Source: a virus. Taken from it: a DNA stretch of 64,000 nt. The DNA lies in IMG/VR virus record IMGVR_UViG_3300022690_000671, positions 1 to 64,000 of that record. One strand, given 5' to 3'. Of the stretch, positions 33,601 through 47,879 are shown one piece after another. Below the pieces are notes generated by a model. That model worked only from the letters and a program-made list of their open reading frames with translations. It did no database searches and was not told the origin of the DNA. Position numbers and translations under genes: made by a program. Each line of letters opens with the position of its first letter. Positions within the stretch are counted from its first letter, which is position 1.

Positions 33601-36600
33601 TTTAATCCTCTTAGTCTCCCTGATAATGTAGTCGTTATCGATACAAACACTGATCTTTCGAGAGGTCATATAGGAATAAACGATAGTGACGAATATTTTG
33701 CGGACCACATGGGTCATGTTTTCCGTTCTCCTATTGGTAACAGTGTTGATGAAATTACTCATTATCGTAGAGGTGCGATACTTGTCGGAAAGGTCGAAGA
33801 TGCAAAAGTAGGACAATTGTTAGACGAAAACAACGTGGAACCGGGCGATATTGACGATATTGATCTTCTAGGTCATGAGGTTTGGTCTTCGCTTGTCGAA
33901 CAACAAGGAGATACACCAGAACCATTAGCAATAGATCCTCTTGAAATTACTGAGTTGGCCCTGCGTGGACAAAGAAGCTTCTTACTTGATCTAGGAGGTG
34001 AGTTACGTGGTCAATTTCAATCTCCCGGACTTAAAAAGGCTCTTCAAGCACTTGAAAGAAACGAACGCCCCCAAGAAATACGCTCCATAGCTGAAGGCAA
34101 TGAGGAGTTAGAAGATTTCAACCGTAGACTCAAAGACTACGCTGCTCTATGGGATCAACGTGAGGCCATTTTGAACCCTATTACTCCTCTTCGCGATTCT
34201 CAGGGTAATCCTGATTGGGTAACAGCAGAGATTCTTATGTTAGATGACGATATCAATGAGATCTCTATTGATGATGATAATACGGTTGTTGGTTTTGTTG
34301 AAAACGAGAATAGCGAAACGCTTTTTTACAGACGCAACCTCGCCGATCAGTGGGAATCTGTAGAAGAGATCACGGAAGAAGAACATGGTAAGGCCCTAGA
34401 AGTCGCAGAGAAACGTTTGATGACTATGCGCAATGAAGGCACTGTTTTCACAATCAACGGCCAAGTTGTTGCAGATCTCAAAGTTCAATCTGCTTCGAAG
34501 AAACGTAAAACTGCTGAAACTGCTGCTATTAAAGCAGGGGAAAAGTATAAGGGTAAGGCCGAGGCCGCACTAAGAGCGAAAGCTGAATTGGCGTTAAGTA
34601 TTGTACCAGATGCAATGACTCCCAGCGGGGGACCTGCACTGCGTACTTTTGTGCGCTTGGTTAACGACTATAGAACTGACGTTGAATCCTATCTCAGGGC
34701 AGAAGATGCGTATCACGAGGCAAATATTGGTTTAGAAGAAAACCCTGAAGACGAGATTAATGACAACGGTCGTGGATTTCGTAGTTTCCGTAAGGACATA
34801 GAAGCATATTTCAGTGGTAAAGGTATTGCCATATTTGATGGTAAGGATCCTTCTGATCTCGCGAATCGTAGTCTTCAAAAGATGATTCATCAGGAATCTA
34901 TGGCGAGAGTGAGACTTGAAGAAAACACAACTGCCCCAGAACTAGACGAAGAAATTCAACGTCAGATATCTGATGGTGTGGTTAGGGGTTTGAGTCTAAC
35001 TGAAATTCTCAATGAACTACCAAAACAGAATCCTCAATCTGTTGAAAATCTGTACAATGTATTAGCCTCATCCATAATTGGTGTTGATGAGGATATTGAT
35101 TTTGAAGATCCTCACCTGGACATTAATGACATAGTATCGTATTCTATGTCATCGCCATCGCCTCGTGTTCGTGAATCAAGAGCACGGCGCGTAATATCTT
35201 GGTTTAAACCTAGTACTCCTAATATACACCGTCGAAATGTTATATCTACCTCGTTTCGTCGTCTCACATATCAAGCTGCGAAATACCCTGGCGCAGTGAT
35301 GAATATTGCTCGTAAAGTGTATGCTTCTCCTGAAAAAAGATTAAGGGTAGGTGGAGTTCCTAGAACTTTATTTGAAGCAAGAGAATTCGAAGAAGAGAAA
35401 TGGTTTACTAAATATCTTGATATTCAAGAAGATGCTGATAGGTGGATGAAGAATAATGTTCCTATTGGAAACAGAGAAAAAGCATGGGGACGTATTGGTG
35501 CATTACAGCGTCAACCAAGTCTCGCAACTGCGACAGATCGCGATCAAGCATTATTGGGATTTGCAAATCAATTGCATAACCTGATGGAGAAATTTGGCAA
35601 ATACTTGAGTGATGAAAAAAACGACGATTTCAACCTTCTTTCTGAAGCCCAACTTATCCAGTTTGATCCTGTAAAGGGAACGCGTTACTTTCCTCGTACC
35701 TGGAATGCTATGGAGATGGAGAGAAGAGAGTCGCAGTGGAAGGAAATCCTTCGTCGACAATCGCTTCCTATTTTCCGTAAGCGCATAGAAGAAAAACGGA
35801 AGGAATTAAATGCCGAACTTCTTGAGGCTGAAGCTGATCTTCAAAAAGCAATAGATAAGGATTCTGATTCCAGAGCCTCAAAAAGAGGTAGAGACCTCGT
35901 CGATATCGTTAAAAATAATTTACAATCTCTTGATGGAACCCTTGACGAATTTATCGATCAAATATTCAATAAGATTACAAAGGGCGATACCTTTGCTTAT
36001 GATAAGTGGTTATTTAGCGACAAGAGTCGTCTTATAAGGGAAATGCTTGATACTTTTCCTAATGCTCCTCGTGGTATCCACGCCAAACAGCGTAAGTTAT
36101 GGTGGATAAACGAAAACGAATTTGCACAAGCTAATTTCTTGGCTGATGATCCGCGTGATGCGTTACCTACGTATCTAAGAAACTTTATTCGTCAAAGAGA
36201 ATATATTAGACGTTTTGGTCGCAGTAATCAAGAACTTGAGATTACTGCTAAGGAAATGGAAATTATCGGTAAGGCCAAAGGTTATGATTCGAAAACAATT
36301 AAAAGCGACATAGAAGAATTCAAACGAATAATGGAGGGTCTTGCCGGAGTCTTGCATATCGAAAATATTGCAAGATATCACGGTGCTGATAAAGTTATTC
36401 GTTTGAGTCATACACTATCTGTTATGTCCGCGCTAACCTTTACGGGCGTCACGTCATTTATTGAAACCGCTGCGATTCCTTTAAGATTTGGTTTTGAAGC
36501 AGCGGCGTTAGGACTTACAGCACTTCCTGGCTTTGCCAAGGAGAAAATGGGTGTACCAGTAAGAGCCTTTATGAAGGGTATTGGTATTATGGTACCAAAA

Positions 36601-37707
36601 CACTTTGGGCGTAGTCAAATTATGGAAATGGGTAGAATGGTGGCTGTTATTTCCCACCATACTATTAATACACTTATTGACGAACGGGCTCTTGGTTATG
36701 CTTTAGATGACACTCAACCCAACTCAAAAGCAGCTAAATATTCTCGCAAGTTAATTAGAGGATTTTATAAAATTAATTTAGTTGCTCCAATTACAGAACT
36801 TCAGAGAGTAATGTCGGCTGTAGCTGCTCAAAGACATATTACCAGATTATTTCGTAAACCGCGCAGTAAACTAACTACCAGAGAATTGGATTTACTCGAA
36901 ATCCTTAATCTTAAAAATGATTTTGATCGTCTCCGAGAAGTCTGGCGCTCAAATAAAGCAAATTTGTTCAGAATTCGCGAACGTGAAAGTCAAGAAGATT
37001 TCGAGACGTTTCAAACAGCCATTTATCGTGCAGTTAATCAGGCAATAACGAAACCCAACGCAGCAACTAAACCTGTCTGGGGTAATAGTCTTGATCCCAT
37101 TCTTCAGGCAGTATATTCTTTGAAAAGTTTCTCTGATGGTTTTAGAGAAGGTGCCTTTGCTTTTTGGCTTGACCGTATGAGAAATGGAGATTGGCCCGAA
37201 AAATTCTCTATGATGGTGAGATTTTTAAATTTATTATTTGTTTCTTGGCTCACTGAATCGATCATTCGACCTGGAGTAAAAGTAATACTTGGTGCAGATG
37301 CTCAAGAACTAAAAGAAAGGGAAGAAAGAACAGGAAGACTTCTCAACGCAATTGCTGTAATAGATAAGACAGGATTTACAGTACAAGGCAGTAACTTTCT
37401 TGGTGCATTTTATGCCTCTAAATATGGACGATCTCCTGAATCAGGTGTCGTAGGGCCTGGAGTAACTGCTGTGTCAGATGTTGCCAAAGGATTTTACGTT
37501 TCGCTTGATAGAGGCGACCCTGCTTTTTTATGGAATGCTTTGTACAATAGCTACGTTCCAGGAGCAAAACTTCCATTCCTCAAAGATTTGGCAACCATCG
37601 AACCGGGCAAGTTTAAAGTTGATGTTCCGGCCCTACTTGGTATCGAAAAGGAATCTACTGGAGGTGGTCGACGCCGTAGTAGAACACGTCGTAGTAAAGA
37701 ACGTTAA
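27655..37707 (+). CDS. giant polyvalent internal virion protein (hydrophobic G/A-rich region, degenerate metallopeptidase, GNAT, CmoA-like SAM domain, helical C-terminus)
   Basis: 3350 aa; DEIFHAF; FRGRGFGSQLL; VLDIGAGE...GIDSSAAM...TFQF...LEKF; last gene of the late block. Confidence 0.8.
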   Translation: MENQELLDLLQAIIDRQPEGPADIARPQDEAAAPEPLEILPQPGVSTAEQLAAAPEPLEILPQPGVSTAEQLAAATTQEEADILERRVSEERFQETASLQDFLRRKSEGPLTRVTGPREVQEEDNPVVALLGAIDKRTQEDEGFFNDLLSGLSEGSRIVVSDAARNFGFQDFANRLEETAPRERTTTPAAAIGRAIVGGTKFFIEGGLSLALGPVLGGSSLEEQFGFDPGEQRDILDEIRQVKTRPDDFTEEQVTDLVNRRDAALRNTQIFEARQILSELTPEGTGIDDFLEGFERSKFTILANVAAAFGDIDDFETANRLREIASTEQFDAQSAYATAGEIGAQSIPSAAALLIGGPVAAGLMGAFYFTQGLGSGRTVYRDIKEKTGEEVKFIEEMTLGIGFGLAEMLTERFGLKVLENISTKLAFELGEKALLTQIRKGTLTQAQIVAMSKWTVATMGAEAYEEAVNSVAQTTMISMFDPETGVMDQGLWDFTKDLTEDALISAAGGALGGGFVGPAARFRGRQNIRNARRELNEASDDELFNVLQDENVNEGIRGVAEEIFNSRLAGQAPTVDGARLPTPQMTPEFREEFTAAANEASSADLQRGLLDGRFTGEQTDIIIGILEQKPSEEAPVRFGPERVREQRRRFAETLEEAERLGQPVEELEPRVGIRTQVPGTERIVRPGAVLEGAIDIEAARQGAEIVDAEEAVVNQENAIQIFNSFIDATNLVEEEKTRFKNAIILADVAGRRGTEEELRSRGILSGDPGSPVITIGDQTYEGDTAKEMLGTFRIGAVTVGSKDQLRNIFLLANVDETDVRDEIFHAFMDFAPGEVKRDAINAFNEEFDTTFKTYSEGRERMAREFANHLGGIRRTERGGFLRGLFDTHNRAWRQTINPFKRGDVAEQVQTGAFTDLLLKIGRGEVADLVQPGIVEEIVEEAAEPQEAEIRQVINEDSDRRADVLREIEEEGRPFGIGEVAFQALARGEPTATFFAEPGVVEGEEAIEGEAAVTLTREQFLERLTNEENIRRLAQNQANLEQRTITVQIDPGAAPEIFTPTKLRVPRPGPVTEAERQETLAEERIARTRQQQLQRVEEAATVATEDPLTALREAIANQDVNRIAEIVDINPDAFETADRQSLIEEAEEQGPGVAAFVESQLAFPTEAVEREPTQLRVPVTPQVDVQEEAVRAESAQRVSERNKLETQRTELINQFNASEQSVQDALAAFDEKFPTSTSAQILQTKTSLEQGEIPAPLTRVNRNNTTLVAVRDAIQRLNDVNDQLEQVETTIGDVEGRMTGLELAVSPEGTTPEERDEIAAIQALRLDENQEVSLIRQVLGRQFVTDKVSSKSVVDTENGTFRIDLYQDFRNPGQSIAFVEGTIVEDGDDPHMQITSRGTERGFRGRGFGSQLLDEAFQEATFRNIPLRSDNNVSAAAVRTFRRFGEQSNVDLVQSDNTTELPDGSFFLAGDNPNYVFQLTVSSDDPLPPDFFGEDTPLVENVEEAEEQFNEATATPDEDTTLETEENVVRLRMEDELRKTSVDLQGPIPSVVRRDDPKEGQEDTIPDGVQSSEEFAQFFADTVRAEDGGAQNVEDPLNASVMDTEEHESIYETYESFQGNFDTHISTSIPGFVDAQVRVVDALSKILEEGSEVLDIGAGENTFLKTLQVTSRANDRRIEGLGIDSSAAMRDAAKKRRVRGIRFRLSAWGESFVDPDTGRRVKVFEADDGTYDLVYEGMTFQFISDDRSGQLDEVVRIMKDDGLFVTLEKFNQQNEDTYFQQEKAKDAFKLLFYEQSDIDTKKKTVLGNAASREGMRSNMVDQTTFENLLLDRFEHVAQIWSSGNFSGYIATNDRAKFDAFISNLSSTNSDFAVKQTPHLISDSPAQRDGLNTAQRTQEQEVETTLQGTPVVAQWTKQETGRYTHEIDGSVWEIKLEEGDWNTTRDGVSVLDPTRTLREAKTLVSEAINLTRNDALQDDGDLIQFNPLSLPDNVVVIDTNTDLSRGHIGINDSDEYFADHMGHVFRSPIGNSVDEITHYRRGAILVGKVEDAKVGQLLDENNVEPGDIDDIDLLGHEVWSSLVEQQGDTPEPLAIDPLEITELALRGQRSFLLDLGGELRGQFQSPGLKKALQALERNERPQEIRSIAEGNEELEDFNRRLKDYAALWDQREAILNPITPLRDSQGNPDWVTAEILMLDDDINEISIDDDNTVVGFVENENSETLFYRRNLADQWESVEEITEEEHGKALEVAEKRLMTMRNEGTVFTINGQVVADLKVQSASKKRKTAETAAIKAGEKYKGKAEAALRAKAELALSIVPDAMTPSGGPALRTFVRLVNDYRTDVESYLRAEDAYHEANIGLEENPEDEINDNGRGFRSFRKDIEAYFSGKGIAIFDGKDPSDLANRSLQKMIHQESMARVRLEENTTAPELDEEIQRQISDGVVRGLSLTEILNELPKQNPQSVENLYNVLASSIIGVDEDIDFEDPHLDINDIVSYSMSSPSPRVRESRARRVISWFKPSTPNIHRRNVISTSFRRLTYQAAKYPGAVMNIARKVYASPEKRLRVGGVPRTLFEAREFEEEKWFTKYLDIQEDADRWMKNNVPIGNREKAWGRIGALQRQPSLATATDRDQALLGFANQLHNLMEKFGKYLSDEKNDDFNLLSEAQLIQFDPVKGTRYFPRTWNAMEMERRESQWKEILRRQSLPIFRKRIEEKRKELNAELLEAEADLQKAIDKDSDSRASKRGRDLVDIVKNNLQSLDGTLDEFIDQIFNKITKGDTFAYDKWLFSDKSRLIREMLDTFPNAPRGIHAKQRKLWWINENEFAQANFLADDPRDALPTYLRNFIRQREYIRRFGRSNQELEITAKEMEIIGKAKGYDSKTIKSDIEEFKRIMEGLAGVLHIENIARYHGADKVIRLSHTLSVMSALTFTGVTSFIETAAIPLRFGFEAAALGLTALPGFAKEKMGVPVRAFMKGIGIMVPKHFGRSQIMEMGRMVAVISHHTINTLIDERALGYALDDTQPNSKAAKYSRKLIRGFYKINLVAPITELQRVMSAVAAQRHITRLFRKPRSKLTTRELDLLEILNLKNDFDRLREVWRSNKANLFRIRERESQEDFETFQTAIYRAVNQAITKPNAATKPVWGNSLDPILQAVYSLKSFSDGFREGAFAFWLDRMRNGDWPEKFSMMVRFLNLLFVSWLTESIIRPGVKVILGADAQELKEREERTGRLLNAIAVIDKTGFTVQGSNFLGAFYASKYGRSPESGVVGPGVTAVSDVAKGFYVSLDRGDPAFLWNALYNSYVPGAKLPFLKDLATIEPGKFKVDVPALLGIEKESTGGGRRRSRTRRSKER
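27745..27878 (+). repeat. perfect 63-bp tandem duplication in giant gene
   Basis: 27745-27807 identical to 27808-27870, encodes AAAPEPLEILPQPGVSTAEQL twice. Confidence 0.95.
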
Positions 37708-39025: not shown

Positions 39026-40654
39026 TTACGTTTTCCCAGTCATTAAATCAGCAGCAGAAGGTTCGGTCGAGATCATTCCTAGTTCCCTCCGAACATCCGT
39101 ATAATCCTGTTTAAGGATCTTAGTAATAGATGCTTCGCTTACATCGTGATCTTTGGCTATTTTCTTTTTACCACCTTTCTGACGAGGAACATAGTTATCC
39201 TGGATAGAGATCTGCTCCCAAACGTTAAGTCTTGCAATCTCTAAATGTTGGTATTTGGTCAAGATCAAAATCTCGGCCTCAAACGCTTCACTATCTTCCT
39301 CTTTAATGAGACTGGGACGTATGCCTTTCCGTTCAAGGGCTTTGAAACGATTCTTGTCGAATATAGGCCCGGTGCGTTTTTGCCACTGAGTAAGTGTGAG
39401 ACAAGACTGGAAACCGATGAAATGTTCATCGAGCAACACGATCTCTTTGGCTTGAAAGGATCTACCATCTTTAGGAACACGGAGAATGATTGCGACTTCG
39501 ATAGGTTCCCACGGGACTTCATCAAAGATGTCGAAGGCCACATATTTTTTTTCTTCTTCATAGGCAAAGACATATGCAGCTAATTGTAAATAGTATTCCG
39601 GCCAAATCCTTTTACTAGATTTCCAGTCTACCATTGCTAATCTACCATCGACATAGGCTAAGAAGTCGAAGGTTCCAGAATAATTGTATTTGCGGCTATA
39701 TACTTTGCGTTCTGTATGGATAGGAATAACGTCGTGATTTTTCCACCACTTGGTAAATGCAATAATGGCAGATTCGGCCTCGTCATTGTCAGGTAATTCG
39801 GGATAAAGTGACGGATTATCCTCAGTTCCACCCAACACTGAAATTTTAACCTTGATAAATTTTTCTATCCATTCATGAACGATATGACCTATATCTCCAG
39901 CCTTTTCCAGAGTAACGTTTCTTGCCTTTTCGGCAGTTTGTAGCATTGCTTCCCATTGAACTTTATCGTAGTACAATGTAGGATCTACGTGATCGCGAAG
40001 CCAATTGGTCGTCTCTTTCACGGCCCACGGAATAAGACCCGGTTTATTGACTATTCGAGTAATGGATGTAGTTGAGGTTACTAGCTCTCCCGTAGATTCC
40101 AATCGATACTGATGAGAATCGTCATCATATAGTAGTACAACTTCTCCACCATATAAGACGTGTCGTTCTGCTTGATCTTTATTAAACTCAGGAATATATT
40201 CCGTCCGAGCCCACACTCTCATTTTTTCTATACCATCTATTAACCATTCATAAGATCTACCATCAATTCGATCTCCAGAATATACATAGTAATGATCAAA
40301 CGGAAGTTCCGACTCGGCCAATAGCTTCAACAACTCCTCAGTCTGTTTGACCTTGTTGAGTATTGCTATCAGAATGCTTTTCTGAAATCCTCCGGGATTG
40401 CGTCTAGATTCATTGTCGGTCATTATTCGACCAACACGTTTAGCCTCATAGCCGTGAAGATTCATGAGTTGGTCGCGATCAGGATGAGAACTACGCAACC
40501 AGTACCAATATCCTTCTATACTACGAAAAGCACCGTCTGGACAAATGAACGGAGCGTCAGCAAAGTTCGACATCCATTGACCTATAGCAGTGTTACCTTT
40601 ACTGTATATGTTGATATGATCGACGCCATCGTTCTCAGGTAAGAAGGTGCTCAT
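39026..40654 (-). CDS. NADAR-like domain fused to PD-(D/E)XK exonuclease with C-terminal HTH
   Basis: N-term INIYSKG..SNFADAPF...FRSIEGYW...HGYEAKRVGR; nuclease TSTTSI, GHIVH, TERKVY, GTFD, DWKSS, YYLQLAAY. Confidence 0.75.
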   Translation of the reverse strand: MSTFLPENDGVDHINIYSKGNTAIGQWMSNFADAPFICPDGAFRSIEGYWYWLRSSHPDRDQLMNLHGYEAKRVGRIMTDNESRRNPGGFQKSILIAILNKVKQTEELLKLLAESELPFDHYYVYSGDRIDGRSYEWLIDGIEKMRVWARTEYIPEFNKDQAERHVLYGGEVVLLYDDDSHQYRLESTGELVTSTTSITRIVNKPGLIPWAVKETTNWLRDHVDPTLYYDKVQWEAMLQTAEKARNVTLEKAGDIGHIVHEWIEKFIKVKISVLGGTEDNPSLYPELPDNDEAESAIIAFTKWWKNHDVIPIHTERKVYSRKYNYSGTFDFLAYVDGRLAMVDWKSSKRIWPEYYLQLAAYVFAYEEEKKYVAFDIFDEVPWEPIEVAIILRVPKDGRSFQAKEIVLLDEHFIGFQSCLTLTQWQKRTGPIFDKNRFKALERKGIRPSLIKEEDSEAFEAEILILTKYQHLEIARLNVWEQISIQDNYVPRQKGGKKKIAKDHDVSEASITKILKQDYTDVRRELGMISTEPSAADLMTGKT

Positions 40655-41652
40655 ATCTGTAACCCCGCAAATTCTTTGAGAGAAATTGGAAACCCAGCAG
40701 AAGAGAAATGCCCCCCACCACCGAGAGATTTAGCTAATTTGCCTACGTCGTATAAAAGACCCTCCTTGCGACTACGAAGATTGAAAATTACGTTTTCGTC
40801 TCCTGTAATGAAATAGCTCATGGTAAAGGCCCACTCTGAATGAAGCGCCAAAGCGGCGTGGTGGGTTTCAGAAATGGTGTGAGAAAGATTCGCCAGTCCG
40901 TATGGGATACTATCCTTTATACGTTCTTGGGCAGTGAAAGTTGCGGCTTGTTGCTCTGCGATCATATCTCGATAGAGAATCATTGCTTTGCCTTGTTCAA
41001 ACAATCTAGGATAATATGGACCAACGTAACTTATTTGATTTGGTTTTTCTTCATATAGATTTTTCAAAGCTTTAAATCCGTACTTATGAATGTACGATTC
41101 CAAAGCTATTGTGTATTCGTCAGTATAAGGCAACTCCCAATTCCATAGATCTCTATCCTCTATGTGGAGTAGAATAGGAGGAATAGGTTCAATACTTATG
41201 TTAAGAGGAACATAACCATTCCAATAGTACCAGGCCAGTGTTGCCGCACTATGATCTGGAGCATATACCCATTTAAAATTGTTACCTTTGTCCGTTGCAG
41301 TAATAACGTAAACAGTTCCCCAATCATATTCTGATCTCGTCTTATTACCACGCTCTACAGTATTAAAAAATTCTTTAAATGCATCGAATCCATACTGGTG
41401 ATGATCGATAACTGTCACAGGAACGTGGAGATTGAAGAGTTGTTCTGGAGGGTAAACCCAGTCGAGGACCACTAATTCCTTTGTGTCATGAGGCAGTTGT
41501 GGTACAATCTTTCGTGATCCTCCCATGTGACCCGTCGAGAAAAATGCCAATTCCGTGTTCAAGTATTGTCTACACCACCACCAGGTGGCATATGCAGCGC
41601 CCACACCATCCAGGTCGTCGTCGTGTAGTATTACTACTTTGTGGTTTTTCAT
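40651..41652 (-). CDS. DHH/DHHA1 phosphoesterase
   Basis: HDDDLDG, VLD, IDHH, EDRDLW, NLRS, GGGGH.SSAGF. Confidence 0.9.
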   Translation of the reverse strand: MKNHKVVILHDDDLDGVGAAYATWWWCRQYLNTELAFFSTGHMGGSRKIVPQLPHDTKELVVLDWVYPPEQLFNLHVPVTVIDHHQYGFDAFKEFFNTVERGNKTRSEYDWGTVYVITATDKGNNFKWVYAPDHSAATLAWYYWNGYVPLNISIEPIPPILLHIEDRDLWNWELPYTDEYTIALESYIHKYGFKALKNLYEEKPNQISYVGPYYPRLFEQGKAMILYRDMIAEQQAATFTAQERIKDSIPYGLANLSHTISETHHAALALHSEWAFTMSYFITGDENVIFNLRSRKEGLLYDVGKLAKSLGGGGHFSSAGFPISLKEFAGLQI

Positions 41653-42269
41653 GATGACGTTAGCTGTTTAATTTCTTGAAATATTTCCTCAACCTTAATC
41701 CATAGACCCGACATAGTATGGTTATTGTCAATGACATAGTCCCATTTGTTAAAATCATCCAAGGCGATTTCCGAACGATGTTGATTGTCTCTTGCTGTAT
41801 CAACACCTTCACCTCTAAGTCGCTCCGAGGCATCCACCTTGATCAATACGCCGCCCATATCTATAATCATACGAGCTTCGTTAGGAAACCGAACATCAGA
41901 TATAACAACGTGCTGAATGGATGAAAGGTCGATAATTTTCCTCTTAACGTTTAATGCCCAGATGTTCGCATGGACACGGTTACGAAAAATATCAGTTCCG
42001 ATGAACTGAAGAAGCCAAGTTACTGTTACATCCCGACCAAAGACGGCAGACCAAAAAGGAAGAACATCCAACTTCCGGTCGTCAAACATGATCGCTGGAT
42101 CAAGACAAAATGCAGCAGCCGTAGTTTTTTTCAAAGCCTCGGCAAATGATAGGCTAACGAAATCTAGACCTTGTTCTCGGCCCAGTTCCACAATCATTTC
42201 GGCAACGGTATCTTTTCCGTGCCTGGCCTTATGGCCTATACCTATAATGAGTCTTTCTGGATTAGGCAT
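41649..42269 (-). CDS. deoxynucleoside monophosphate kinase
   Basis: GHKARHGKDT P-loop, FAEALK, LQFIGTD, ISDVRFPNE, H.SE. Confidence 0.9.
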   Translation of the reverse strand: MPNPERLIIGIGHKARHGKDTVAEMIVELGREQGLDFVSLSFAEALKKTTAAAFCLDPAIMFDDRKLDVLPFWSAVFGRDVTVTWLLQFIGTDIFRNRVHANIWALNVKRKIIDLSSIQHVVISDVRFPNEARMIIDMGGVLIKVDASERLRGEGVDTARDNQHRSEIALDDFNKWDYVIDNNHTMSGLWIKVEEIFQEIKQLTSS

Positions 42270-42867
42270 ATGATACCTCCTGCATTTTCTTTTTGAGTTG
42301 TTTGAATCGTTTCATAAAGGAAAACATCGCCATCTTGGAGTCCATCGGAAAGATAGTAACATCATCATACGGAGGATGATTCGTATATTTAGAAATATCG
42401 TACCAGGGATGAAGGTCTCGACGTTCCGTGGTGTAGATGCGATAGTCTACCTCCTTCATCTCATCATGGTGTATCGTCATAGTTTCATGTATACCAAATT
42501 TTTGTTCTATGACGCGTTGCATATTAGCTGCAATTTCTTTGTAACGAGGCAATAGAGCTTTCAATGGAGACGGCAAATCTTGCATATATGCTTCATGAGC
42601 ATCATGTAGCAAGAAACCCATTGCTTTCCAGGGATCTTTAAACTTTCGACTCCCTAGAACACTGTGTTGTGAGACGGAATAATGCCAACTCGTTTGACCC
42701 GTGAACCTGGCAACATTGCTAAGACCAGTGGCGATATCTTGAATACGGAACATGTCTTCTGTAGGGCTCAGATAATCGATCTTAATCCCTGAGTTGGACA
42801 TGATCGATGTTTTGGCAACAACTAGATCTACTCGCTCATCTTCGATATTCTCTAAATTGCGCTCCAT
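42262..42867 (-). CDS. HD-domain 5'-deoxynucleotidase (YfbR-like)
   Basis: DIATGLSNVARFTGQ, YSVSQHS, LLHDAHEAYMQDLPSPLK. Confidence 0.9.
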   Translation of the reverse strand: MERNLENIEDERVDLVVAKTSIMSNSGIKIDYLSPTEDMFRIQDIATGLSNVARFTGQTSWHYSVSQHSVLGSRKFKDPWKAMGFLLHDAHEAYMQDLPSPLKALLPRYKEIAANMQRVIEQKFGIHETMTIHHDEMKEVDYRIYTTERRDLHPWYDISKYTNHPPYDDVTIFPMDSKMAMFSFMKRFKQLKKKMQEVSYA

Positions 42868-42884
42868 GATATCATCAGGTATGG

Positions 42885-43346
42885 TTATGAAGGTTTGAGA
42901 TTGTCAAGATCTACTCCGGGAATCCCTTGTGATAAAGCAGCTTTGGTTATTCTATTTTGTTGTTCTCGGACAAATGTTTCAACTTCGTCGACGAATTCAA
43001 GTCGAGCATTGGCCCATGCTTCGTGCCAAATCACTTCATCTAGAATAGTAAATTGTTGAGAATATACCATGAATCGTGCAATAGCATTGTATAAATCAAT
43101 AAGGGTATCACGATGAACGTCAGAGACTTCTTCTACACGACCCAGATCAGTGTCGAGACTTATCTCAAATATATCAGCAGCAACAATGGAAATCTTAGCA
43201 ACACTTTGCATCAACTGTACCAGTTGGCGCTTATCTCCATAGATCTGCATGGCAATTTTGACAAGTTCAGGATAGGCCCCAACGCGATCATATTCGTCGT
43301 CTTGATTTTCTTCTTGTGGTGTCTGATTTCCCTGGTCTTCGGTCAT
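42885..43346 (-). CDS. hypothetical protein (possibly degenerate MazG-like helical fold)
   Basis: AMQIYG.K.QL pattern, but lacks the acidic EE motif. Confidence 0.55.
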   Translation of the reverse strand: MTEDQGNQTPQEENQDDEYDRVGAYPELVKIAMQIYGDKRQLVQLMQSVAKISIVAADIFEISLDTDLGRVEEVSDVHRDTLIDLYNAIARFMVYSQQFTILDEVIWHEAWANARLEFVDEVETFVREQQNRITKAALSQGIPGVDLDNLKPS

Positions 43347-43531
43347 GAGTTTGTAGTAGATTTAGGTTGACATTTACTCCTACGAACAAAGCTTCTAATC
43401 TTGACGGCTTCGTCTCTCATAGGTCGTATTTGATGAGTAGACCATCCTCCGTCGACAGATTCGTCGGCCCATACTTCTAATTGCTTTGCCACTTCTAATA
43501 GCTTTTCATGTGGAGTCATGATTTCTTCCAT
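43343..43531 (-). CDS. hypothetical protein
   Basis: 62 aa, coupled overlaps at both ends. Confidence 0.65.
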   Translation of the reverse strand: MEEIMTPHEKLLEVAKQLEVWADESVDGGWSTHQIRPMRDEAVKIRSFVRRSKCQPKSTTNS

Positions 43532-43944
43532 TATGTTTCGATAGCTATACGGTTAATTTCTGCTTGATAAGACGACATCTGTGCTCGTGCTTGTGCCGCG
43601 TACGGGTGGAGGAACGCTGTATGCGACGAGATTAATGACGAATAAGATAATGCCGCCCGGAAAAGTTGGTCGCTCTGGTTGCGTTGTTGTTCTCCAAGCT
43701 TGTCAACGTTAACATCGACTTTATCTCTCCAAAGCTCTTCTTCGCTCCAAGGTTGATCATATTTTACGTCTATACACCAATCCTTATCTTCATCATATTT
43801 TATATACCATCCTCTAACAATTAACTATATGAACACGATGCCAAAAACACCTCCGAAAACAACATGTATGAAAAGTAGCAACGATAAGAATATAACAGCC
43901 AATAGACTACCTATAACTTCATATGTTTTTTGGTTCAAAATCAT
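43531..43944 (-). CDS. membrane protein gene interrupted by an in-frame TAG (readthrough or nonsense allele)
   Basis: ATG 43944 overlaps polB stop (ATGA); TAG at 43825-43827; 97 further open codons; TAA overlaps next ATG (TAATG). Confidence 0.6.
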
Positions 43945-46900
43945 AACGTCCGATGTTTTTTTGGTGGAACCAGGGATACGTGAACTCGCATACCAGCCTT
44001 TTTGGCGGTTTCTATCATATCCCTGGTTCCTCTTGAAGTTCCGTTCCATACGGCAATAAGAGCAGCGCCATTCTTTCCAATAGAAGACATGGCCTTTTCC
44101 GCCATAAGTTGATTACGGTTATGCCCCGCCAAAGCATTGTATGGTACTCCTAAAACGTTGCGTTTCATAAGAACGTTATCTACTTCGAAATTGTTCCATT
44201 GCGCCGCTTCTTCATGGTGGTCGATTCCTTCTCTAACTGCATATTCCTTGGCCGCAGCGTCAACTCCCTTAGCCCCGCCCTGAATAATTTTGGCAATAAC
44301 ATTACCAGAGGGATCACTATCGGCCTTTTCTATTAACTTCAAAAAAGGAGCCCCCGCAATGGCGCGTTCTATCCAAAAAATATCATTTATGTCACGCCCC
44401 CCTGCTATGATAACTTGCATAGGTTTACGTTTCACATCGCGTTGGACAATCTCTATGCTATTATAATCGAAATCAGGATCCGTTTGTTCACTAAACAACA
44501 TACGCCATCCCTCTTCAGTAAAGAATATCCCGAACTTCTTCGCGGAGTCCATGAGTTTCTTTAAATACCAGTTCGTGTTTTCGTCTGGATTGTCAGGATC
44601 GTGTTCCTCGGCCCATTTGCTATGTTGAAAAGCACGTATCTTATACACCTTCATTTCCTTGGGCGCGGCGCAATAGTGAGCAAAGCGGTCGCCTACCACC
44701 ACCTTGTGTTTCCCCGATTCGTGTATTCTCTTGGCGACCTCATATCCAGCATCAGCGTTGCGTCCTCCGTTTCCAACGCCTAGTTTTACCTTCTTGTCGT
44801 AGAGACTCAGCGGATCCTTAACTGTGCTGCGTTTACAAAACTCGTCAATTGTCCAGTCGGACGTAAAGACTTTTGTCCAATACCTCGTGTAAATTTCATG
44901 TACCTTTACAGGATCTCTTTCCAAAATGGCTGTGATGATCTCTACTACGAACTCACGACGAAAAAGTTCGATCACGCGGCTCTTGAAGCTACCGCCTTTA
45001 ATCTTTAGCCGACCCTCAACAAGAGCGTAATTCTTCTTACGTAACGAAAGCATAGAAGTTGCTCTTCCATCGAAACCAACTACGATTCCTGATGGCATAC
45101 GTTTTGTCAGAGACTCAACCCAATCCCTGTCTCCCATAGGAAACGGTCCCTTGATATCATGTTTTAATTCAATAATGGCGACCGCCTTACCTTCTGGATG
45201 ATCCTGGTTGTATACCCATTTAGGAGGAATACAAAGTGTTCCGTCCGTATTCTTACAGAGAATTCCACCTACTCCACCAACAAATGTTCCGTCTTCTGTA
45301 GAAATATCATAAACATCTAATCCTGTCTTTCTTTCAATCAAAGCTCTAACTTCACTTGACTCATATTTTATCCGCCGCGTTCCAGTAAGAGTGCCCAAAC
45401 GTACAATTGTTTCTTTATCTTTTCTAACATGTACATTAATTCTATGAGATAACTCCAGATCTCTCATCAACCACCACATCCCAGCAGCAAGTATGTGAGA
45501 CTTTGTTGTATATTGTCCAGTACCGTCTTTATAAAAATGACCATCTCCCTTCATAGCTCCGTCAAAAAAACCATGTTTCATTTCTTTTGATCCGTTCAAG
45601 ACAACGGAAGGAACTTTCTTTTGATGAGTTGCTTCATCATAGAGAAGATTATTCCATATATTATATTGTATTATATTGTAACCGCCAGTTGCTTTATTAC
45701 ATCCTGTGGATTTCATTGTATCGTAAACCATCATCCTGGTTCTATAGTATTTAAACGCAAGATCACAAACAAGTTGAAGCAAATCCTTATCTTTTTCGGC
45801 GCACGATACATTCGTCGACCAACCATTTGGTTTTCTTGAAACCCTGGACGTAGAGCCTTCTGCTACCATAATACCCAGGAGCCAACCGTGTTCATAGTCT
45901 CCTTCTTCGTTGTTCGGTAAAATAGGCAAATCGATAATCTCAAGTTTATCCCCTATAATCAAATCACGGGGTTTAACCATTTCTCCATCTTCACGAAAAA
46001 GGCTATGATCTTCAGTTACAACAACAGTACCACACATTGTTCTGACTTCAAGCATACGTTTATCTGTATTGTGACGCTTAGTATATTTGATAGGTTTCCA
46101 TCCCGATCTAGTTAAGACTTCTATTCCATCATATCCATCAAAACGACGTAATTCGTCCGAATCATGAAGAGTAGCTATAGACACAACATCAATATCATCG
46201 CCGCGACGTATGTAAACAGGTGTATAAGCAGCAACAGAGTCACAAGCTATAGGTTGTCCTCCATCTTTAATGATTTCACGAAGCATCTTTTTAAGAAGAC
46301 CCTGACCTATGGTACATACACGATCTGCTTGAATAAAATCATTAAAAATAAAGAAGTTAAAACCAAGTGCGCCATACATCGAGTTGCCTTGTATTTTATA
46401 AGCCGCTTGTTTATGATCTAACGACTCGTGTTCTTTCTTTCTACCTGTCAGAGGTTTACCATTTAAATCTTCTAAGGCTTTCATCTCGGCCTTAGTCGCC
46501 AAACGTAAATCTGTCAACTCTCTTAAAATCCTTGGGAACGTATTTAACGTGTCGGTTGACGGTTTTACATCATAGTTGAGCATAATACTTGGATACAGAG
46601 ACTCGACATCTGCATAAACTATGTTCTCGTAGACTCCTATTTTGAATATATCAGTATAACCACCAACTTCCATTCGACCCGCCTTGAATGTTGGTATGCT
46701 ATGTCGTTTTTCCAGATATTCCCTTACCATGATGTGTTCTACCTTAGTTGCAGAACCTCCTCTGGCTATACGCTCATAGGTCATTGGAACCATCTGGCTC
46801 AACGCAAAATGACTTCCGCCGAGATGTTTACCAATGGATCTGGTTTCATATACATCGTCTAGAGCATAACGCAGTACACGTTCAGGGTCTTCGTCCCAGG

Positions 46901-47879
46901 TCTTTGCTATTTGATCTCCCTGGATGTATTCACGATTTTCTGAGGCAAAACCAAAGTATTTAGCTGCACCTTTCAGGGTGTGATCTTGCATCGATCTTTT
47001 AACTACGTCAAACGCCAATACCAAGAAATATGTATCTATGATGTGTCTCCCAGCTATAGTCCAGGCCGGGTATTCTATCTGGCGTTCAGCGAAACGTATT
47101 TGTGTATCATAGAATGTGGGAACGGATCCGTCTCGTCCTATGTTAACCTCGATACCATAACGTTCGCACCTGGTCATCAGGTAAGGCATATCGAAACTCA
47201 GGAAGTTGTGGCCCTCGATAATGTCGGGGTCCAAAGCTTGAATGGTTTCGACCCATTCTTCCAACATTTCTTTTTCGGTATCAAACCTAATTGAATCTTT
47301 AGTGTGAACACCTTTTGGAGCAATATGAAAAACAACATCAAATCCTTTATTATCACACATAGATATGATAAAAATCTTATCGGTTTCTCTGGAAGCGTTA
47401 GGAAAACCTACCCTGCTATATGCCTCAATGTCGCACTGAAGACGATGGACATCATCAAACCCCCTGCCCTTAAACATGGTATTACCAGTCTGCATAAGCC
47501 ACTGAGACTCAGCAGATGCGATCATGTAGATCTCTTTACGTTTCCATTCCCTCGTTTTAAGATTCTTAAGCACTTGTTTTTTAGCTCCCCACATCTCAAA
47601 CCAGTTGTTAAACACAACAAGCACCTGGTAATAGTTGTCGCCCTCAAGATTTACCCAACGATACTGTTCGCGAGGAAAGTTATTGAGAAGATTAATATCT
47701 TTGAGCCAGAAAAACGGATAAAAGTTTTCCAAAGTGAATTCTGTACGACCAATATGATTATTCCACACCTGCATCTTGTTACCATCAGGATGCATCGCCA
47801 AACCGACAATACCCTGTCTGTCAGACTTACCGTAGAGTAGTGCAGATTGTATAGGGTCGTCTTTTAATTCCACTCTCAA
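43941..47879 (-). CDS. polB: family B DNA polymerase with intein and C-terminal SLOG domain
   Basis: Exo DIE, GHNFLSFD, YALDD; pol DVESLYPSIM, K...NSMYG, D-[intein]-TDG, KKNYA; C-term IIAGGRD...GGAKGVD...RNQLM...WNGTSRGTRDMI. Confidence 0.95.
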   Translation of the reverse strand: MRVELKDDPIQSALLYGKSDRQGIVGLAMHPDGNKMQVWNNHIGRTEFTLENFYPFFWLKDINLLNNFPREQYRWVNLEGDNYYQVLVVFNNWFEMWGAKKQVLKNLKTREWKRKEIYMIASAESQWLMQTGNTMFKGRGFDDVHRLQCDIEAYSRVGFPNASRETDKIFIISMCDNKGFDVVFHIAPKGVHTKDSIRFDTEKEMLEEWVETIQALDPDIIEGHNFLSFDMPYLMTRCERYGIEVNIGRDGSVPTFYDTQIRFAERQIEYPAWTIAGRHIIDTYFLVLAFDVVKRSMQDHTLKGAAKYFGFASENREYIQGDQIAKTWDEDPERVLRYALDDVYETRSIGKHLGGSHFALSQMVPMTYERIARGGSATKVEHIMVREYLEKRHSIPTFKAGRMEVGGYTDIFKIGVYENIVYADVESLYPSIMLNYDVKPSTDTLNTFPRILRELTDLRLATKAEMKALEDLNGKPLTGRKKEHESLDHKQAAYKIQGNSMYGALGFNFFIFNDFIQADRVCTIGQGLLKKMLREIIKDGGQPIACDSVAAYTPVYIRRGDDIDVVSIATLHDSDELRRFDGYDGIEVLTRSGWKPIKYTKRHNTDKRMLEVRTMCGTVVVTEDHSLFREDGEMVKPRDLIIGDKLEIIDLPILPNNEEGDYEHGWLLGIMVAEGSTSRVSRKPNGWSTNVSCAEKDKDLLQLVCDLAFKYYRTRMMVYDTMKSTGCNKATGGYNIIQYNIWNNLLYDEATHQKKVPSVVLNGSKEMKHGFFDGAMKGDGHFYKDGTGQYTTKSHILAAGMWWLMRDLELSHRINVHVRKDKETIVRLGTLTGTRRIKYESSEVRALIERKTGLDVYDISTEDGTFVGGVGGILCKNTDGTLCIPPKWVYNQDHPEGKAVAIIELKHDIKGPFPMGDRDWVESLTKRMPSGIVVGFDGRATSMLSLRKKNYALVEGRLKIKGGSFKSRVIELFRREFVVEIITAILERDPVKVHEIYTRYWTKVFTSDWTIDEFCKRSTVKDPLSLYDKKVKLGVGNGGRNADAGYEVAKRIHESGKHKVVVGDRFAHYCAAPKEMKVYKIRAFQHSKWAEEHDPDNPDENTNWYLKKLMDSAKKFGIFFTEEGWRMLFSEQTDPDFDYNSIEIVQRDVKRKPMQVIIAGGRDINDIFWIERAIAGAPFLKLIEKADSDPSGNVIAKIIQGGAKGVDAAAKEYAVREGIDHHEEAAQWNNFEVDNVLMKRNVLGVPYNALAGHNRNQLMAEKAMSSIGKNGAALIAVWNGTSRGTRDMIETAKKAGMRVHVSLVPPKKHRTL
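45249..46238 (-). mobile_element. intein with LAGLIDADG homing endonuclease in the PolB DTD motif
   Basis: 330 aa from SVAAYTPV to GGILCKN|T; block B VTEDHS, LLGIMVAEGS, FFDGAMKGDG, block F VYDISTEDGTF. Confidence 0.95.

What the first reader, a model, noticed from the sequence alone, without database searches (positions are those of the whole stretch)
39026..47879. Candidate replisome-tethered anti-ADP-ribosylation system: NADAR-exonuclease and PolB-SLOG fusions in one operon
Seen: the exonuclease gene begins with a NADAR-like domain, and PolB ends with a YspA/DUF2493-type SLOG domain. The two genes lie 3.3 kb apart, flanking DHH, dNMP kinase and HD genes. Established: NADAR enzymes remove ADP-ribose from guanine in DNA (antitoxin of DarT1); YspA-type SLOG domains co-occur and fuse with NADAR/Macro/Nudix domains; phage escape from DarTG has been mapped to a DNA polymerase. 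Inference: the phage has split a NADAR/SLOG module and attached each half to an enzyme that meets ssDNA lesions, so that lesions are removed or sensed during replication and recombination. I do not recall this pairing being described.
Basis: partly seen in the sequence, partly recalled or inferred. Interest (0 to 1): 0.85.

Follow-up and report, generated by a model that had tools for sequence, protein, structure and literature searches.

The report
Phage NADAR-exonuclease and polymerase-SLOG fusions
An uncultured phage has welded a domain of the kind that strips ADP-ribose off DNA onto its recombination exonuclease, and that domain's usual partner (a SLOG nucleotide-binding domain) onto its DNA polymerase; this unusual arrangement hints at DNA repair built into replication but is untested.

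Summary
The 542-aa minus-strand gene at 39026-40654 is a NADAR domain (residues 1-152) joined directly to a PD-(D/E)XK exonuclease. The 1312-aa family-B polymerase at 43941-47879 ends in a YAcAr/DUF2493 SLOG domain (residues 1154-1312). DHH, dNMP kinase and HD phosphatase genes lie between them.

The NADAR call rests on fold and profile. The AlphaFold model has pLDDT 94.6. Only the three solved NADARs match it (Z 12.3, 11.8, 9.4; next 2.3). hhalign to a T4-type gp30.3 gives 95% probability. It is the phage gp30.3/AdfN type: E47, R54, K72, R76 and an invariant H121.

T4 gp30.3 (AdfN) is already known to remove ADP-ribose from DNA and defeat DarTG1, and NADAR-SLOG fusions in viruses are already described. 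I found at least 10 such fusions among 150 family representatives.

What is new is the attachment to an exonuclease and a polymerase. No second example of either fusion turned up. The nearest known phages (Salinibacter Kryptosalinivirus) lack both domains.

The "split module" origin is not supported. The SLOG's closest relatives are stand-alone proteins, and it keeps their start Met, so two separate stop-loss fusions are more likely.

Function is inferred, not shown. Verdict: new variant of a known kind, moderate interest.

The parts
40199..40654 (-). NADAR domain, phage gp30.3/AdfN type (residues 1-152 of the 542-aa protein). Key residues: E47, R54, K72, R76, H121.
   Evidence: phrog_652 E 2.6e-40. 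AF2 pLDDT 94.6. Only the solved NADARs match: Z 12.3/11.8/9.4. Profile hits to 2b3w and 8bau. hhalign to Ac42 gp30.3 gives 95.3%. Residue conservation.
39365..40186 (-). PD-(D/E)XK exonuclease domain (residues about 157-430). Motifs H260/E264, D330, D343-x-K345 and Q357..Y361 are intact.
   Evidence: PF12705 E 3e-6 and phrog_298 E 7e-31. Invariant motif columns in alignment A4. Weak, non-significant likeness to MGME1 (E 0.1).
39026..39364 (-). C-terminal tail of the exonuclease protein (residues 431-542, plus the stop codon); no family assigned.
   Evidence: No Pfam or PHROG match. Homologues have unrelated charged tails.
40651..41652 (-). DHH/DHHA1 phosphoesterase. Its stop codon overlaps the start of the NADAR-exonuclease gene (ATGA).
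   Evidence: phrog_4771 E 3.4e-37 and weak Pfam DHH/DHHA1. Sequence of the overlap.
41649..42269 (-). Deoxynucleoside monophosphate kinase.
   Evidence: PF21448 E 3.7e-12 and phrog_139 E 6.9e-43.
42262..42867 (-). HD-type deoxyribonucleoside 5'-monophosphate phosphatase.
   Evidence: phrog_318 E 8.5e-55; weak YfbR-like match.
42885..43531 (-). Two small ORFs of unknown function (153 aa at 42885-43346 and 62 aa at 43343-43531).
   Evidence: No family hit. The Atlas search was uninformative.
46239..47879 (-). PolB N-extein (residues 1-547): 3'-5' exonuclease domain and palm motifs A and B, up to the first Asp of motif C.
   Evidence: PF03104 E 3.4e-18, PF00136 E 7e-16 and phrog_262 E 1e-66. Motif positions.
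45249..46238 (-). Intein with a LAGLIDADG homing endonuclease (residues about 548-877), inserted in polymerase motif C. The exteins join to read ..D|TD.. Boundaries are approximate.
   Evidence: Translation. phmmer hit to PI-PkoII at E 1e-6. Motif coordinates. The Salinibacter phage PolB aligns in two pieces around it.
44421..45248 (-). PolB C-extein (residues 878-1153): the rest of motif C, the thumb and a short linker.
   Evidence: Alignment to Salinibacter phage PolB up to residue 1149. Alignment to the PolB half of P0005.
43941..44420 (-). YAcAr/DUF2493 SLOG domain fused to the polymerase C-terminus (residues 1154-1312, plus the stop codon). It begins with the Met at which stand-alone homologues start.
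   Evidence: PF10686 at 32.6 bits against a 28.2 cut-off. phrog_289. Conserved motifs in A3. AF2 pLDDT 90.5. SLOG fold matches. Junction sequence.

Best explanation
This is the replication and recombination gene cluster of an uncultured tailed phage. Two accessory domains of the viral ADP-ribose network have become fused, in frame, to core DNA enzymes.

The first is a gp30.3/AdfN-type NADAR, a DNA ADP-ribosyl-glycohydrolase. It sits on the N-terminus of a PD-(D/E)XK exonuclease. The second is a YAcAr/DUF2493 SLOG domain on the C-terminus of the intein-bearing family-B polymerase.

Most likely mechanism (inferred): the NADAR hydrolyses the ribose-base bond of ADP-ribosylated guanine, and possibly cytosine, that a host DarT1-like or pierisin-like transferase places on single-stranded phage DNA. 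Riding on the exonuclease brings it to DNA ends, flaps and resected single strands, where such lesions arise and block processing. The SLOG probably binds ADP-ribose or a derivative of it, as ThsA and TRPM2 SLOGs do. On the polymerase it would work as a lesion or ligand reader, or as a second processing enzyme at the fork.

Shown here: the domain identities, intact key residues, the physical fusions, and the recurrent fusion of this NADAR clade to SLOG and to other DNA enzymes. Inferred: the substrate, the benefit of tethering and the SLOG's role. Each fusion most likely arose by loss of a stop codon between neighbouring genes, not by splitting a NADAR-SLOG protein.
For: NADAR identity:
- NADAR fold, with only NADARs matching.
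- Profile hits to YbiA and PnNADAR.
- hhalign 95.3% to a T4-type gp30.3; E47, R54 and H121 align to that protein's E, R and H.
- E47 and H121 are invariant, and K72 and R76 conserved, across 71 family members.

Published activity of close relatives:
- T4 gp30.3 (AdfN) removes ADP-ribose from DNA and is necessary and sufficient against DarTG1. Its E36 and K43, seven residues apart, are essential (PMC11257639).
- A His in the last strand defines phage NADARs (PMC11543638, PMC11125620).

The same NADAR clade is fused elsewhere to DNA enzymes of unrelated folds:
- Rv2179c-like DEDD exonucleases P0122 and P0159.
- An endoV-like pyrimidine-dimer glycosylase, P0087.
- The C-terminal half of a split PolB, P0005.

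SLOG:
- It is intact: Pfam above cut-off, all invariant motif residues present, SLOG fold.
- It is a recurrent fusion partner of this NADAR clade.
- Solved SLOGs that bind ADP-ribose-derived ligands are among the fold matches: ThsA with 3'cADPR, and TRPM2 with ADPR.

Gene cluster: the genes are co-directional, and the stop of the DHH gene overlaps the NADAR-exonuclease start.
Against: - No biochemical or genetic data exist for this protein.
- The Lys/Arg seven residues after the catalytic Glu is Arg here, but it is not conserved in the phrog_652 clade (G, L and S are common). The clade's substrate may therefore differ from AdfN's.
- Pfam's own NADAR and gp30.3 models do not reach threshold on the single sequence.
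- No DarT or other ADP-ribosyltransferase context is known. The host is unknown.
- Neither fusion was found in any other sequence, so there is no evolutionary conservation to show that tethering is selected.
- The nearest known relatives lack both domains.
- NADAR and SLOG are far apart in Kuttervirus SFP10. Only 3 of 23 NADAR-bearing viral contigs carry a YAcAr SLOG.
- Iyer et al. 2022 (PMC9503650) argue that phage NADAR and SLOG mostly act on soluble ADP-ribose derivatives.
- The record is a metagenome assembly estimated at 66% complete. The reading frames at the junctions could not be checked against reads.
Confidence: 0.45

Rival explanations
1. Soluble-signal model. The NADAR and SLOG domains degrade or sequester low-molecular-weight ADP-ribose derivatives made by host immunity (cyclic ADPR isomers, ADPr-phosphates). 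Their attachment to the exonuclease and the polymerase is an accident of stop-codon loss between neighbouring early or middle genes and has no mechanistic meaning.
For: - Iyer et al. 2022 propose exactly this role for most phage NADAR, SLOG, Macro and DUF4326 domains (PMC9503650).
- The commonest fusion partners of this NADAR clade are DUF4326, SLOG, DUF488 and Macro, not DNA enzymes.
- ThsA-type SLOGs bind cyclic ADPR.
- Both fusions look like simple stop-loss events and are unique to this phage.
Against: - The gp30.3-type NADARs tested so far act on ADP-ribosylated DNA (PMC11257639, PMC11125620).
- Independent fusions of this clade to two other nuclease or glycosylase folds and to a PolB half are hard to explain by chance alone.
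Confidence: 0.25
2. Nucleotide-metabolism model. The NADAR (like YbiA, an N-glycosidase of riboflavin intermediates) and the SLOG (like LOG, a nucleotide N-ribohydrolase) act on free nucleotides. They would clean or remodel the dNTP pool together with the dNMP kinase, the HD dNMP phosphatase, the DHH enzyme and MazG encoded nearby.
For: - The domains sit in a cluster with dNMP kinase, HD phosphatase and DHH genes. A MazG pyrophosphatase lies elsewhere in the module.
- YbiA is the best structural match (Z 12.3).
- LOG phosphoribohydrolases are among the SLOG fold matches.
Against: - The last-strand residue is His (the phage gp30.3 type), not the Glu that defines the YbiA subfamily (PMC11125620).
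- The SLOG belongs to the YAcAr clade, not the LOG clade.
- No base-modification enzymes were found in the record.
Confidence: 0.12
3. Structural or DNA-binding model. The SLOG works like the related DprA core, as a single-strand-DNA or protein-binding module that helps a clamp-less polymerase stay on its template. The NADAR is merely a fused passenger or an adaptor.
For: - DprA structures are among the best SLOG matches (Z 8.4-9.5), and Pfam DNA_processg_A gives weak hits.
- No sliding clamp or clamp loader appeared in the Pfam/PHROG survey of the replication module.
Against: - The record is incomplete (66%), so a clamp may be missing from it.
- The related Salinibacter phage polymerase works without this domain.
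- The nucleotide-binding motifs of YAcAr are fully conserved.
- NADAR key residues are conserved, which argues against a passive passenger.
Confidence: 0.08
4. Artefact. One or both fusions are errors of metagenome assembly or base calling (a lost stop codon or a frameshift). The real phage has four separate genes.
For: - The window comes from an IMG/VR metagenome contig.
- Each junction lies exactly at the natural end or start of stand-alone homologues.
- No second phage shows either fusion.
Against: - Both frames are open with no ambiguity across the junctions.
- A second database entry (P0011, 1310 aa, on a 13.5-kb contig) carries the identical PolB-SLOG protein, though it may come from the same sample.
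- Two such errors within one 9-kb stretch are unlikely.
Confidence: 0.05

Closest known systems
AdfN (T4 gp30.3), the phage orphan NADAR that counters DarTG1 (Johannesman et al. 2024, PMC11257639; in vitro activity in PMC11125620)
   Same: - Same fold and the same phage-type signature: catalytic Glu, a basic residue seven positions later, and His in the last strand.
- hhalign gives 95.3% to a T4-type gp30.3.
- Encoded by a lytic-type phage with no linked toxin.
   Different: - A different clade: phrog_652, with only a sub-threshold match to Pfam PF08010.
- AdfN is a stand-alone early protein. Here the domain is the N-terminus of a PD-(D/E)XK exonuclease within the replication module.
- Activity is untested.
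DarG1, the NADAR antitoxin of DarTG1 (Schuller et al. 2023, PMC11543638; structures 8BAT and 8BAU)
   Same: NADAR fold (Z 9.4 and 11.8). The ADP-ribose-contacting residues Glu and Lys/Arg, and the K75/R79-like pair, are present.
   Different: DarG1 has Asp in the last strand and is encoded next to DarT1. Here that residue is His, and no ADP-ribosyltransferase was found in the record.
Viral multidomain ADPr-processing proteins combining NADAR, SLOG, DUF4326 and Macro (Iyer, Burroughs, Anantharaman and Aravind 2022, PMC9503650)
   Same: The same two domain families, with the same recurrent association. P0006 and P0007, among others, carry DUF4326 + NADAR + YAcAr in one chain.
   Different: Here the two domains are not joined to each other. 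Each is joined to a DNA enzyme instead. That paper describes the viral versions as typically stand-alone and, as far as its text could be searched, mentions no polymerase or exonuclease fusion.
SLOG superfamily members with solved structures: YpsA, DprA, ShosA, ThsA SLOG (binds 3'cADPR), LOG, TRPM2 MHR1/2 (binds ADPR)
   Same: Rossmann-like SLOG fold, Z 8-10.9, and the glycine-rich phosphate-binding loop motif.
   Different: It belongs to the YAcAr/DUF2493 clade. I found no experimental work on that clade in phages; a literature search for DUF2493 returned five papers, none with the term in title or abstract. It is attached to a polymerase thumb, not to a Sir2, TIR or channel effector.
DarTG2 escape mutations in the DNA polymerase of phage SECphi18 (LeRoux et al. 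2022, as cited in PMC11257639)
   Same: Links tolerance of DNA ADP-ribosylation to the phage's replicative polymerase.
   Different: Those are point mutations that let a polymerase copy modified DNA. Here an extra domain is appended, and nothing is known about lesion bypass.
Phage PD-(D/E)XK recombination exonucleases (phrog_298; RecB/Cas4/MGME1-like)
   Same: The full motif set is present. The closest homologues, P0003 and P0004, are phage-like exonucleases of 310-357 aa.
   Different: None of the homologues found, and none of 13 related viral loci, carries a NADAR on or near the gene.

Membership tests
NADAR superfamily (YbiA-like fold) | The characteristic alpha+beta fold: a helical core flanked by small beta hairpins. 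| tested here: met
   AF2 model pLDDT 94.6. VIA-align Z 12.3 (2b3w, 139 aa, rmsd 3.4), 11.8 (8bau, 141 aa, rmsd 3.4) and 9.4 (8bat, 143 aa, rmsd 3.7); next best 2.3. Foldseek probability 1.00 for the same three entries.
NADAR superfamily (YbiA-like fold) | Significant sequence relationship to known NADARs. | tested here: met
   The family profile A1 hits YbiA at E 2.8e-5 and PnNADAR at E 2.8e-4. hhalign to Ac42 gp30.3 gives 95.3%, E 2.2e-8.
NADAR superfamily (YbiA-like fold) | Pfam PF08719 or PF08010 above its gathering score on the single sequence (an operational test, not a defining one). | tested here: inconclusive
   No PF08719 hit at E up to 10. PF08010 scores 14.6 bits against a cut-off of 36. 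Other members of the same clade reach 27 bits.
Phage gp30.3/AdfN-type NADAR | Catalytic Glu (PnNADAR E43, AdfN E36). | tested here: met
   E47 is invariant in 71/71 family members. It aligns to the Glu of 8bau and of Ac42 gp30.3.
Phage gp30.3/AdfN-type NADAR | Basic residue seven positions after the Glu (PnNADAR K50, AdfN K43; K-to-R keeps activity in vitro). | tested here: inconclusive
   The window has R54, aligned to Arg in Ac42 gp30.3. In the phrog_652 clade this column is mostly G, L or S.
Phage gp30.3/AdfN-type NADAR | His in the last strand, in place of the Glu of YbiA or the Asp of DarG1. | tested here: met
   H121 is invariant in 71/71. It aligns to the His of Ac42 gp30.3.
Phage gp30.3/AdfN-type NADAR | Removes ADP-ribose from guanine in DNA and rescues phage from DarTG1. 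| not testable with these tools
   Needs enzyme assays and infection assays.
DarTG1 toxin-antitoxin system | NADAR encoded next to a DarT1 ADP-ribosyltransferase. | tested here: not met
   No ART, DarT, Macro, DUF4326 or Nudix family was found among the 45 ORFs scanned: 7 in the cluster and 38 in the rest of the replication module and the remaining 16 kb of the record. If it works at all, the domain is an orphan.
YAcAr/DUF2493 clade of the SLOG superfamily (PF10686) | Pfam model above its gathering score. | tested here: met
   32.6 bits against a 28.2 cut-off for the isolated domain. In the context of the whole protein it scores 25.2 bits.
YAcAr/DUF2493 clade of the SLOG superfamily (PF10686) | Conserved motifs: the first-strand Gly/Arg motif, the glycine-rich G-x-A-x-G-x-D loop, R-N, and G-x-S-x-G-T. 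| tested here: met
   All invariant columns of the 58-sequence alignment are present in the window protein.
YAcAr/DUF2493 clade of the SLOG superfamily (PF10686) | SLOG Rossmann-like fold. | tested here: met
   AF2 pLDDT 90.5. YpsA Z 10.2, ShosA 10.0, DprA 9.5, ThsA 9.5, Moco carrier protein 10.9.
YAcAr/DUF2493 clade of the SLOG superfamily (PF10686) | Ligand (ADP-ribose derivative, nucleotide or ssDNA). | not testable with these tools
   No experimental data on this clade were found.
PD-(D/E)XK nuclease superfamily | Catalytic motif D ... (D/E)-x-K, with the Q..Y motif of the RecB/Cas4-like branch. | tested here: met
   D330, D343-W-K345, Q357 and Y361 are invariant in A4. PF12705 is above its cut-off.
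Family B DNA polymerase | Exo I motif and polymerase motifs A, B and C. | tested here: met
   D-I-E at 150-152, motif A at 424-431 and motif B at 495-503. Motif C is restored as D|TD across the intein. Pfam hits.

The most novel reading that the evidence does not exclude
The NADAR on the exonuclease and the SLOG on the polymerase bind each other in trans, as they sit side by side in natural NADAR-SLOG fusion proteins. That contact would dock the exonuclease onto the polymerase. The result would be a replisome with built-in reversal of ADP-ribose lesions: the SLOG reads ADP-ribose on the template ahead of the polymerase and hands the lesion to the NADAR. It would be the first assigned function for phage DUF2493 SLOG domains and a new kind of replication-coupled counter-defence.
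Probability: 0.12. Interest if true: 0.85.

Novelty: new variant of a known kind. Interest (0 to 1): 0.55.

Why it matters
Phage NADARs are already known to defeat DarTG1 by stripping ADP-ribose from DNA. Their frequent partner, the DUF2493/YAcAr SLOG domain, has no known function, and the leading proposal is that it handles soluble immune signals.

A phage that bolts the SLOG onto its polymerase and the NADAR onto its recombination nuclease points the other way, towards work on DNA at the fork. The other NADAR fusions found here (DEDD exonucleases, an endoV-like glycosylase, a PolB half) point the same way.

It also supplies natural constructs for a direct test: one polymerase with and without its SLOG, and one exonuclease with and without its NADAR, on defined ADP-ribosylated templates.

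If the fusions prove incidental, the finding is simply one more phage with known accessory domains.

Tried and rejected
Searches for a second example of either fusion:
- Word-indexed search with the whole exonuclease protein: only itself at full length.
- Search with the SLOG region among proteins of 721-2296 aa: only itself.
- IMG/VR scans with the exonuclease protein, an exonuclease alignment and the polymerase. Thirteen related exonuclease loci had no NADAR, SLOG or PolB within 10 kb.

'Split module' origin: rejected on BLAST scores and the retained start Met.

Tight NADAR-SLOG linkage: rejected.
- The two genes lie about 90 kb apart in Kuttervirus SFP10.
- A SLOG was present in 3 of 23 NADAR-bearing viral records, against 1 of 14 records chosen for the exonuclease.

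Searches that led nowhere:
- Single-sequence phmmer of the N-domain against PDB gave only chance hits.
- The exonuclease domain against PDB gave only a non-significant MGME1 match (E 0.1).
- The 409-nt gap after the polymerase has no Rfam match and no unusual fold (z 0.81).
- Promoter and terminator scans were at chance level.
- Atlas searches added nothing.
- megablast of the region against GenBank phages found nothing.

Full report
**Setting.** The window is the first 64 kb of a 79,947-bp IMG/VR virus record that CheckV rates 66% complete. Structural genes run on the plus strand up to a 3350-aa ORF ending at 37707. A replication module runs on the minus strand from about 38 kb onwards. Besides the genes of the finding, the module encodes a DnaB-type helicase, SSB, a primase-polymerase, an RNase H-like protein, an RNA ligase, MazG and a RusA-like resolvase. 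No Macro, DUF4326, Nudix or ADP-ribosyltransferase family was found. No GenBank phage is similar at the DNA level. The closest polymerases, at about 35% identity, belong to Salinibacter phages of the genus Kryptosalinivirus.

**The observation.** Seven minus-strand genes fill 39026-47879.
- The 542-aa protein at 39026-40654 has an N-terminal domain matching phrog_652 (residues 3-149, E 2.6e-40). A PD-(D/E)XK exonuclease follows (phrog_298, E 7e-31; Pfam PF12705).
- Upstream lie a DHH phosphoesterase, a dNMP kinase, an HD dNMP phosphatase and two small unknown ORFs.
- The 1312-aa protein at 43941-47879 is a family-B polymerase. Its last 172 residues match Pfam YAcAr (PF10686) above the gathering score when scanned alone (32.6 against 28.2 bits), and also phrog_289.

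**Is the N-domain a NADAR?** Single-sequence tests are weak. The Pfam NADAR model does not hit, Phage_30_3 reaches only E 0.03, and phmmer against PDB finds nothing real. Stronger tests agree with one another.
- An exhaustive HMMER search found 1504 representative clusters of the family.
- An alignment of 71 stand-alone members gave an AlphaFold model with mean pLDDT 94.6.
- Foldseek returns the three NADAR entries of the PDB at probability 1.00, and nothing else below E = 1.
- VIA-align gives Z 12.3 (YbiA 2b3w, 139 residues, rmsd 3.4), 11.8 (PnNADAR with ADP-ribose, 8bau, 141 residues, rmsd 3.4) and 9.4 (G. lovleyi DarG1, 8bat, 143 residues, rmsd 3.7). The next match scores Z 2.3.
- The family profile hits YbiA (E 2.8e-5) and 8bau (E 2.8e-4) by sequence.
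- tblastn reaches genes annotated gp30.3 in T4-like Acinetobacter phages. hhalign of the family against Ac42 gp30.3 gives 95.3% probability, E 2.2e-8.

**Key residues of the NADAR.**
- E47 is invariant. It aligns with PnNADAR E43 and, by the shared Glu-plus-seven spacing, corresponds to AdfN E36.
- K72 and R76 match the K75/R79 pair that covers the pyrophosphate in 8bau.
- H121 is invariant and sits at the last strand, which is the stated hallmark of phage (gp30.3) NADARs (PMC11543638; PMC11125620).
- The basic residue seven positions after the Glu (AdfN K43, essential) is Arg54 here and Arg in Ac42 gp30.3. It is not conserved in the wider phrog_652 clade, which is a caveat about substrate.

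**Is the C-terminal domain a SLOG?** Yes.
- Fifty-seven stand-alone DUF2493 proteins align with it along its whole length. Every invariant column is present in the window protein.
- The model has pLDDT 90.5.
- Its best structural matches are SLOG members: Moco carrier protein (Z 10.9), YpsA (10.2), ShosA (10.0), DprA (9.5), the ThsA SLOG (9.5), LOG enzymes, and the TRPM2 domain that binds ADP-ribose.

**How the fusions are built.**
- The exonuclease part begins exactly where its stand-alone homologues begin, and the NADAR's last helix ends a few residues earlier.
- The SLOG part begins with Met1154, the position at which stand-alone SLOGs start.
- Both junctions are open frames without ambiguity.
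- A second database entry of 1310 aa on a 13.5-kb contig carries the identical polymerase-SLOG protein. It may come from the same sample.
- The window's SLOG shares a characteristic insertion with stand-alone 135-aa SLOGs and scores best with them (35-41% identity, 82-98 bits). SLOGs fused to NADARs score 23-33% and 35-64 bits.
- The two fusions therefore look like independent losses of a stop codon between neighbouring genes, not the two halves of a split NADAR-SLOG protein.

**How unusual they are.** No other protein with either architecture was found in the 5.8-billion-protein collection, within the limits of its word index, or in IMG/VR. Salinibacter phage M31CC-1 has an 801-aa polymerase and neither domain anywhere in its record.

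**What the families do elsewhere.** Of the 150 best representatives of the NADAR clade, 71 are multidomain.
- Their partners are DUF4326 (13), YAcAr and other SLOGs (8 by the YAcAr Pfam model; at least 10 by BLAST with the window's SLOG), DUF488 (7 by the DUF488-N3a model, 2 by DUF488) and Macro (6).
- This is the viral ADP-ribose-processing network described by Iyer et al. 2022 (PMC9503650).
- The same clade is also fused to DNA enzymes of unrelated folds: Rv2179c-like DEDD exonucleases (P0122, P0159), a pyrimidine-dimer glycosylase domain (P0087), and the C-terminal half of a split family-B polymerase (P0005).
- P0005's second part aligns with residues 921-1078 of the window's polymerase. 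In a related viral contig, an HNH homing endonuclease gene splits the polymerase at that same place.
- The NADAR-SLOG pairing is optional. In Kuttervirus SFP10 the two genes lie about 90 kb apart. Only 3 of 23 NADAR-bearing viral records carry a YAcAr SLOG.

**Interpretation.**
- T4 gp30.3 (AdfN) removes ADP-ribose from DNA and is necessary and sufficient to overcome DarTG1. Two other, unrelated phage NADARs do the same (PMC11257639).
- NADARs hydrolyse guanine-ADPr, and some also cytosine-ADPr, but not thymine-ADPr (PMC11543638, PMC11125620, PMC12945103).
- The window's domain is of the gp30.3 type and keeps the key residues. It is fused to a nuclease that works on DNA ends, and relatives are fused to other DNA enzymes.
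- The best reading is therefore a DNA de-ADP-ribosylase delivered to recombination and replication intermediates. The polymerase-borne SLOG would be an ADP-ribose-binding or ADP-ribose-processing partner.
- I put this at about 0.45.
- The main rival (0.25) is that both domains act on soluble ADP-ribose signals and the fusions are incidental.
- Lesser rivals are a role in nucleotide-pool metabolism (0.12), a DprA-like DNA-binding role for the SLOG (0.08), and assembly error (0.05).
- Nothing here shows activity, binding or protection.

**Novelty.** Phage NADARs as counter-defence and NADAR-SLOG fusions are both published. The attachment of the two domains to an exonuclease and a polymerase in one gene cluster was not found in the literature searched or in the sequence collections. 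This is a new variant of a known kind. It is of moderate interest because it gives a concrete, testable hint about the uncharacterised phage SLOG domain.

**Limits.** The contexts of the other fusion proteins, a NADAR-SLOG contact, read support for the junctions and the host could therefore not be examined.

Noticed in passing
window 45249-46238 (-): The polymerase carries a roughly 330-aa intein with two LAGLIDADG motifs, inserted inside motif C; the exteins join to restore D|TD. The best PDB match is the PolB intein endonuclease PI-PkoII (E 1e-6). The penultimate intein residue is Lys, not the usual His.
   Followed up: partly
P0005 (364 aa, NCBI-derived, 4-kb contig); compare L019:4715-7476: In another phage, the same NADAR clade is fused to the C-terminal half (motif C and thumb) of a split family-B polymerase. 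In a related viral contig (L019), the polymerase is split at that spot by an I-HmuI-like HNH homing endonuclease gene instead. This is the same place where the window's polymerase has its intein.
   Followed up: partly
P0122, P0159, P0087 (proteins): This NADAR clade is also fused to Rv2179c-like DEDD 3'-5' exonucleases (two representatives) and to a pyrimidine-dimer DNA glycosylase domain (one). These are nucleic-acid enzymes of folds unrelated to PD-(D/E)XK.
   Followed up: partly
window 40651-40654 (-): The stop codon of the DHH gene overlaps the start codon of the NADAR-exonuclease gene (ATGA). This suggests translational coupling.
   Followed up: no
window 43532-43940: A 409-nt stretch without a convincing gene lies directly downstream of the polymerase-SLOG gene. 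It has no Rfam match and no unusual RNA fold (z 0.81).
   Followed up: yes
window 27655-37707 (+): A giant 3350-aa ORF converges on the replication module. Salinibacter phage M31CC-1 has a similarly placed giant ORF (at least about 2770 aa; cut off at the end of the fetched stretch) near its polymerase, which suggests a shared genome layout.
   Followed up: no
window 38000-64000 and L018 (record 64001-79947): No sliding clamp or clamp loader family appeared in the Pfam/PHROG survey of 38 replication-module ORFs. An RNA ligase (PF09414) and a MazG pyrophosphatase are present. The record is only about 66% complete.
   Followed up: partly
H124/H125 (Erwinia phages RAY and AH06), H168 (Acinetobacter phage phi1_092060): In these GenBank phages the NADAR-homologous stretch lies inside genes annotated as DprA-like or DNA processing protein A. 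They are probably further NADAR-SLOG fusions, and one is in a T4-like phage.
   Followed up: no
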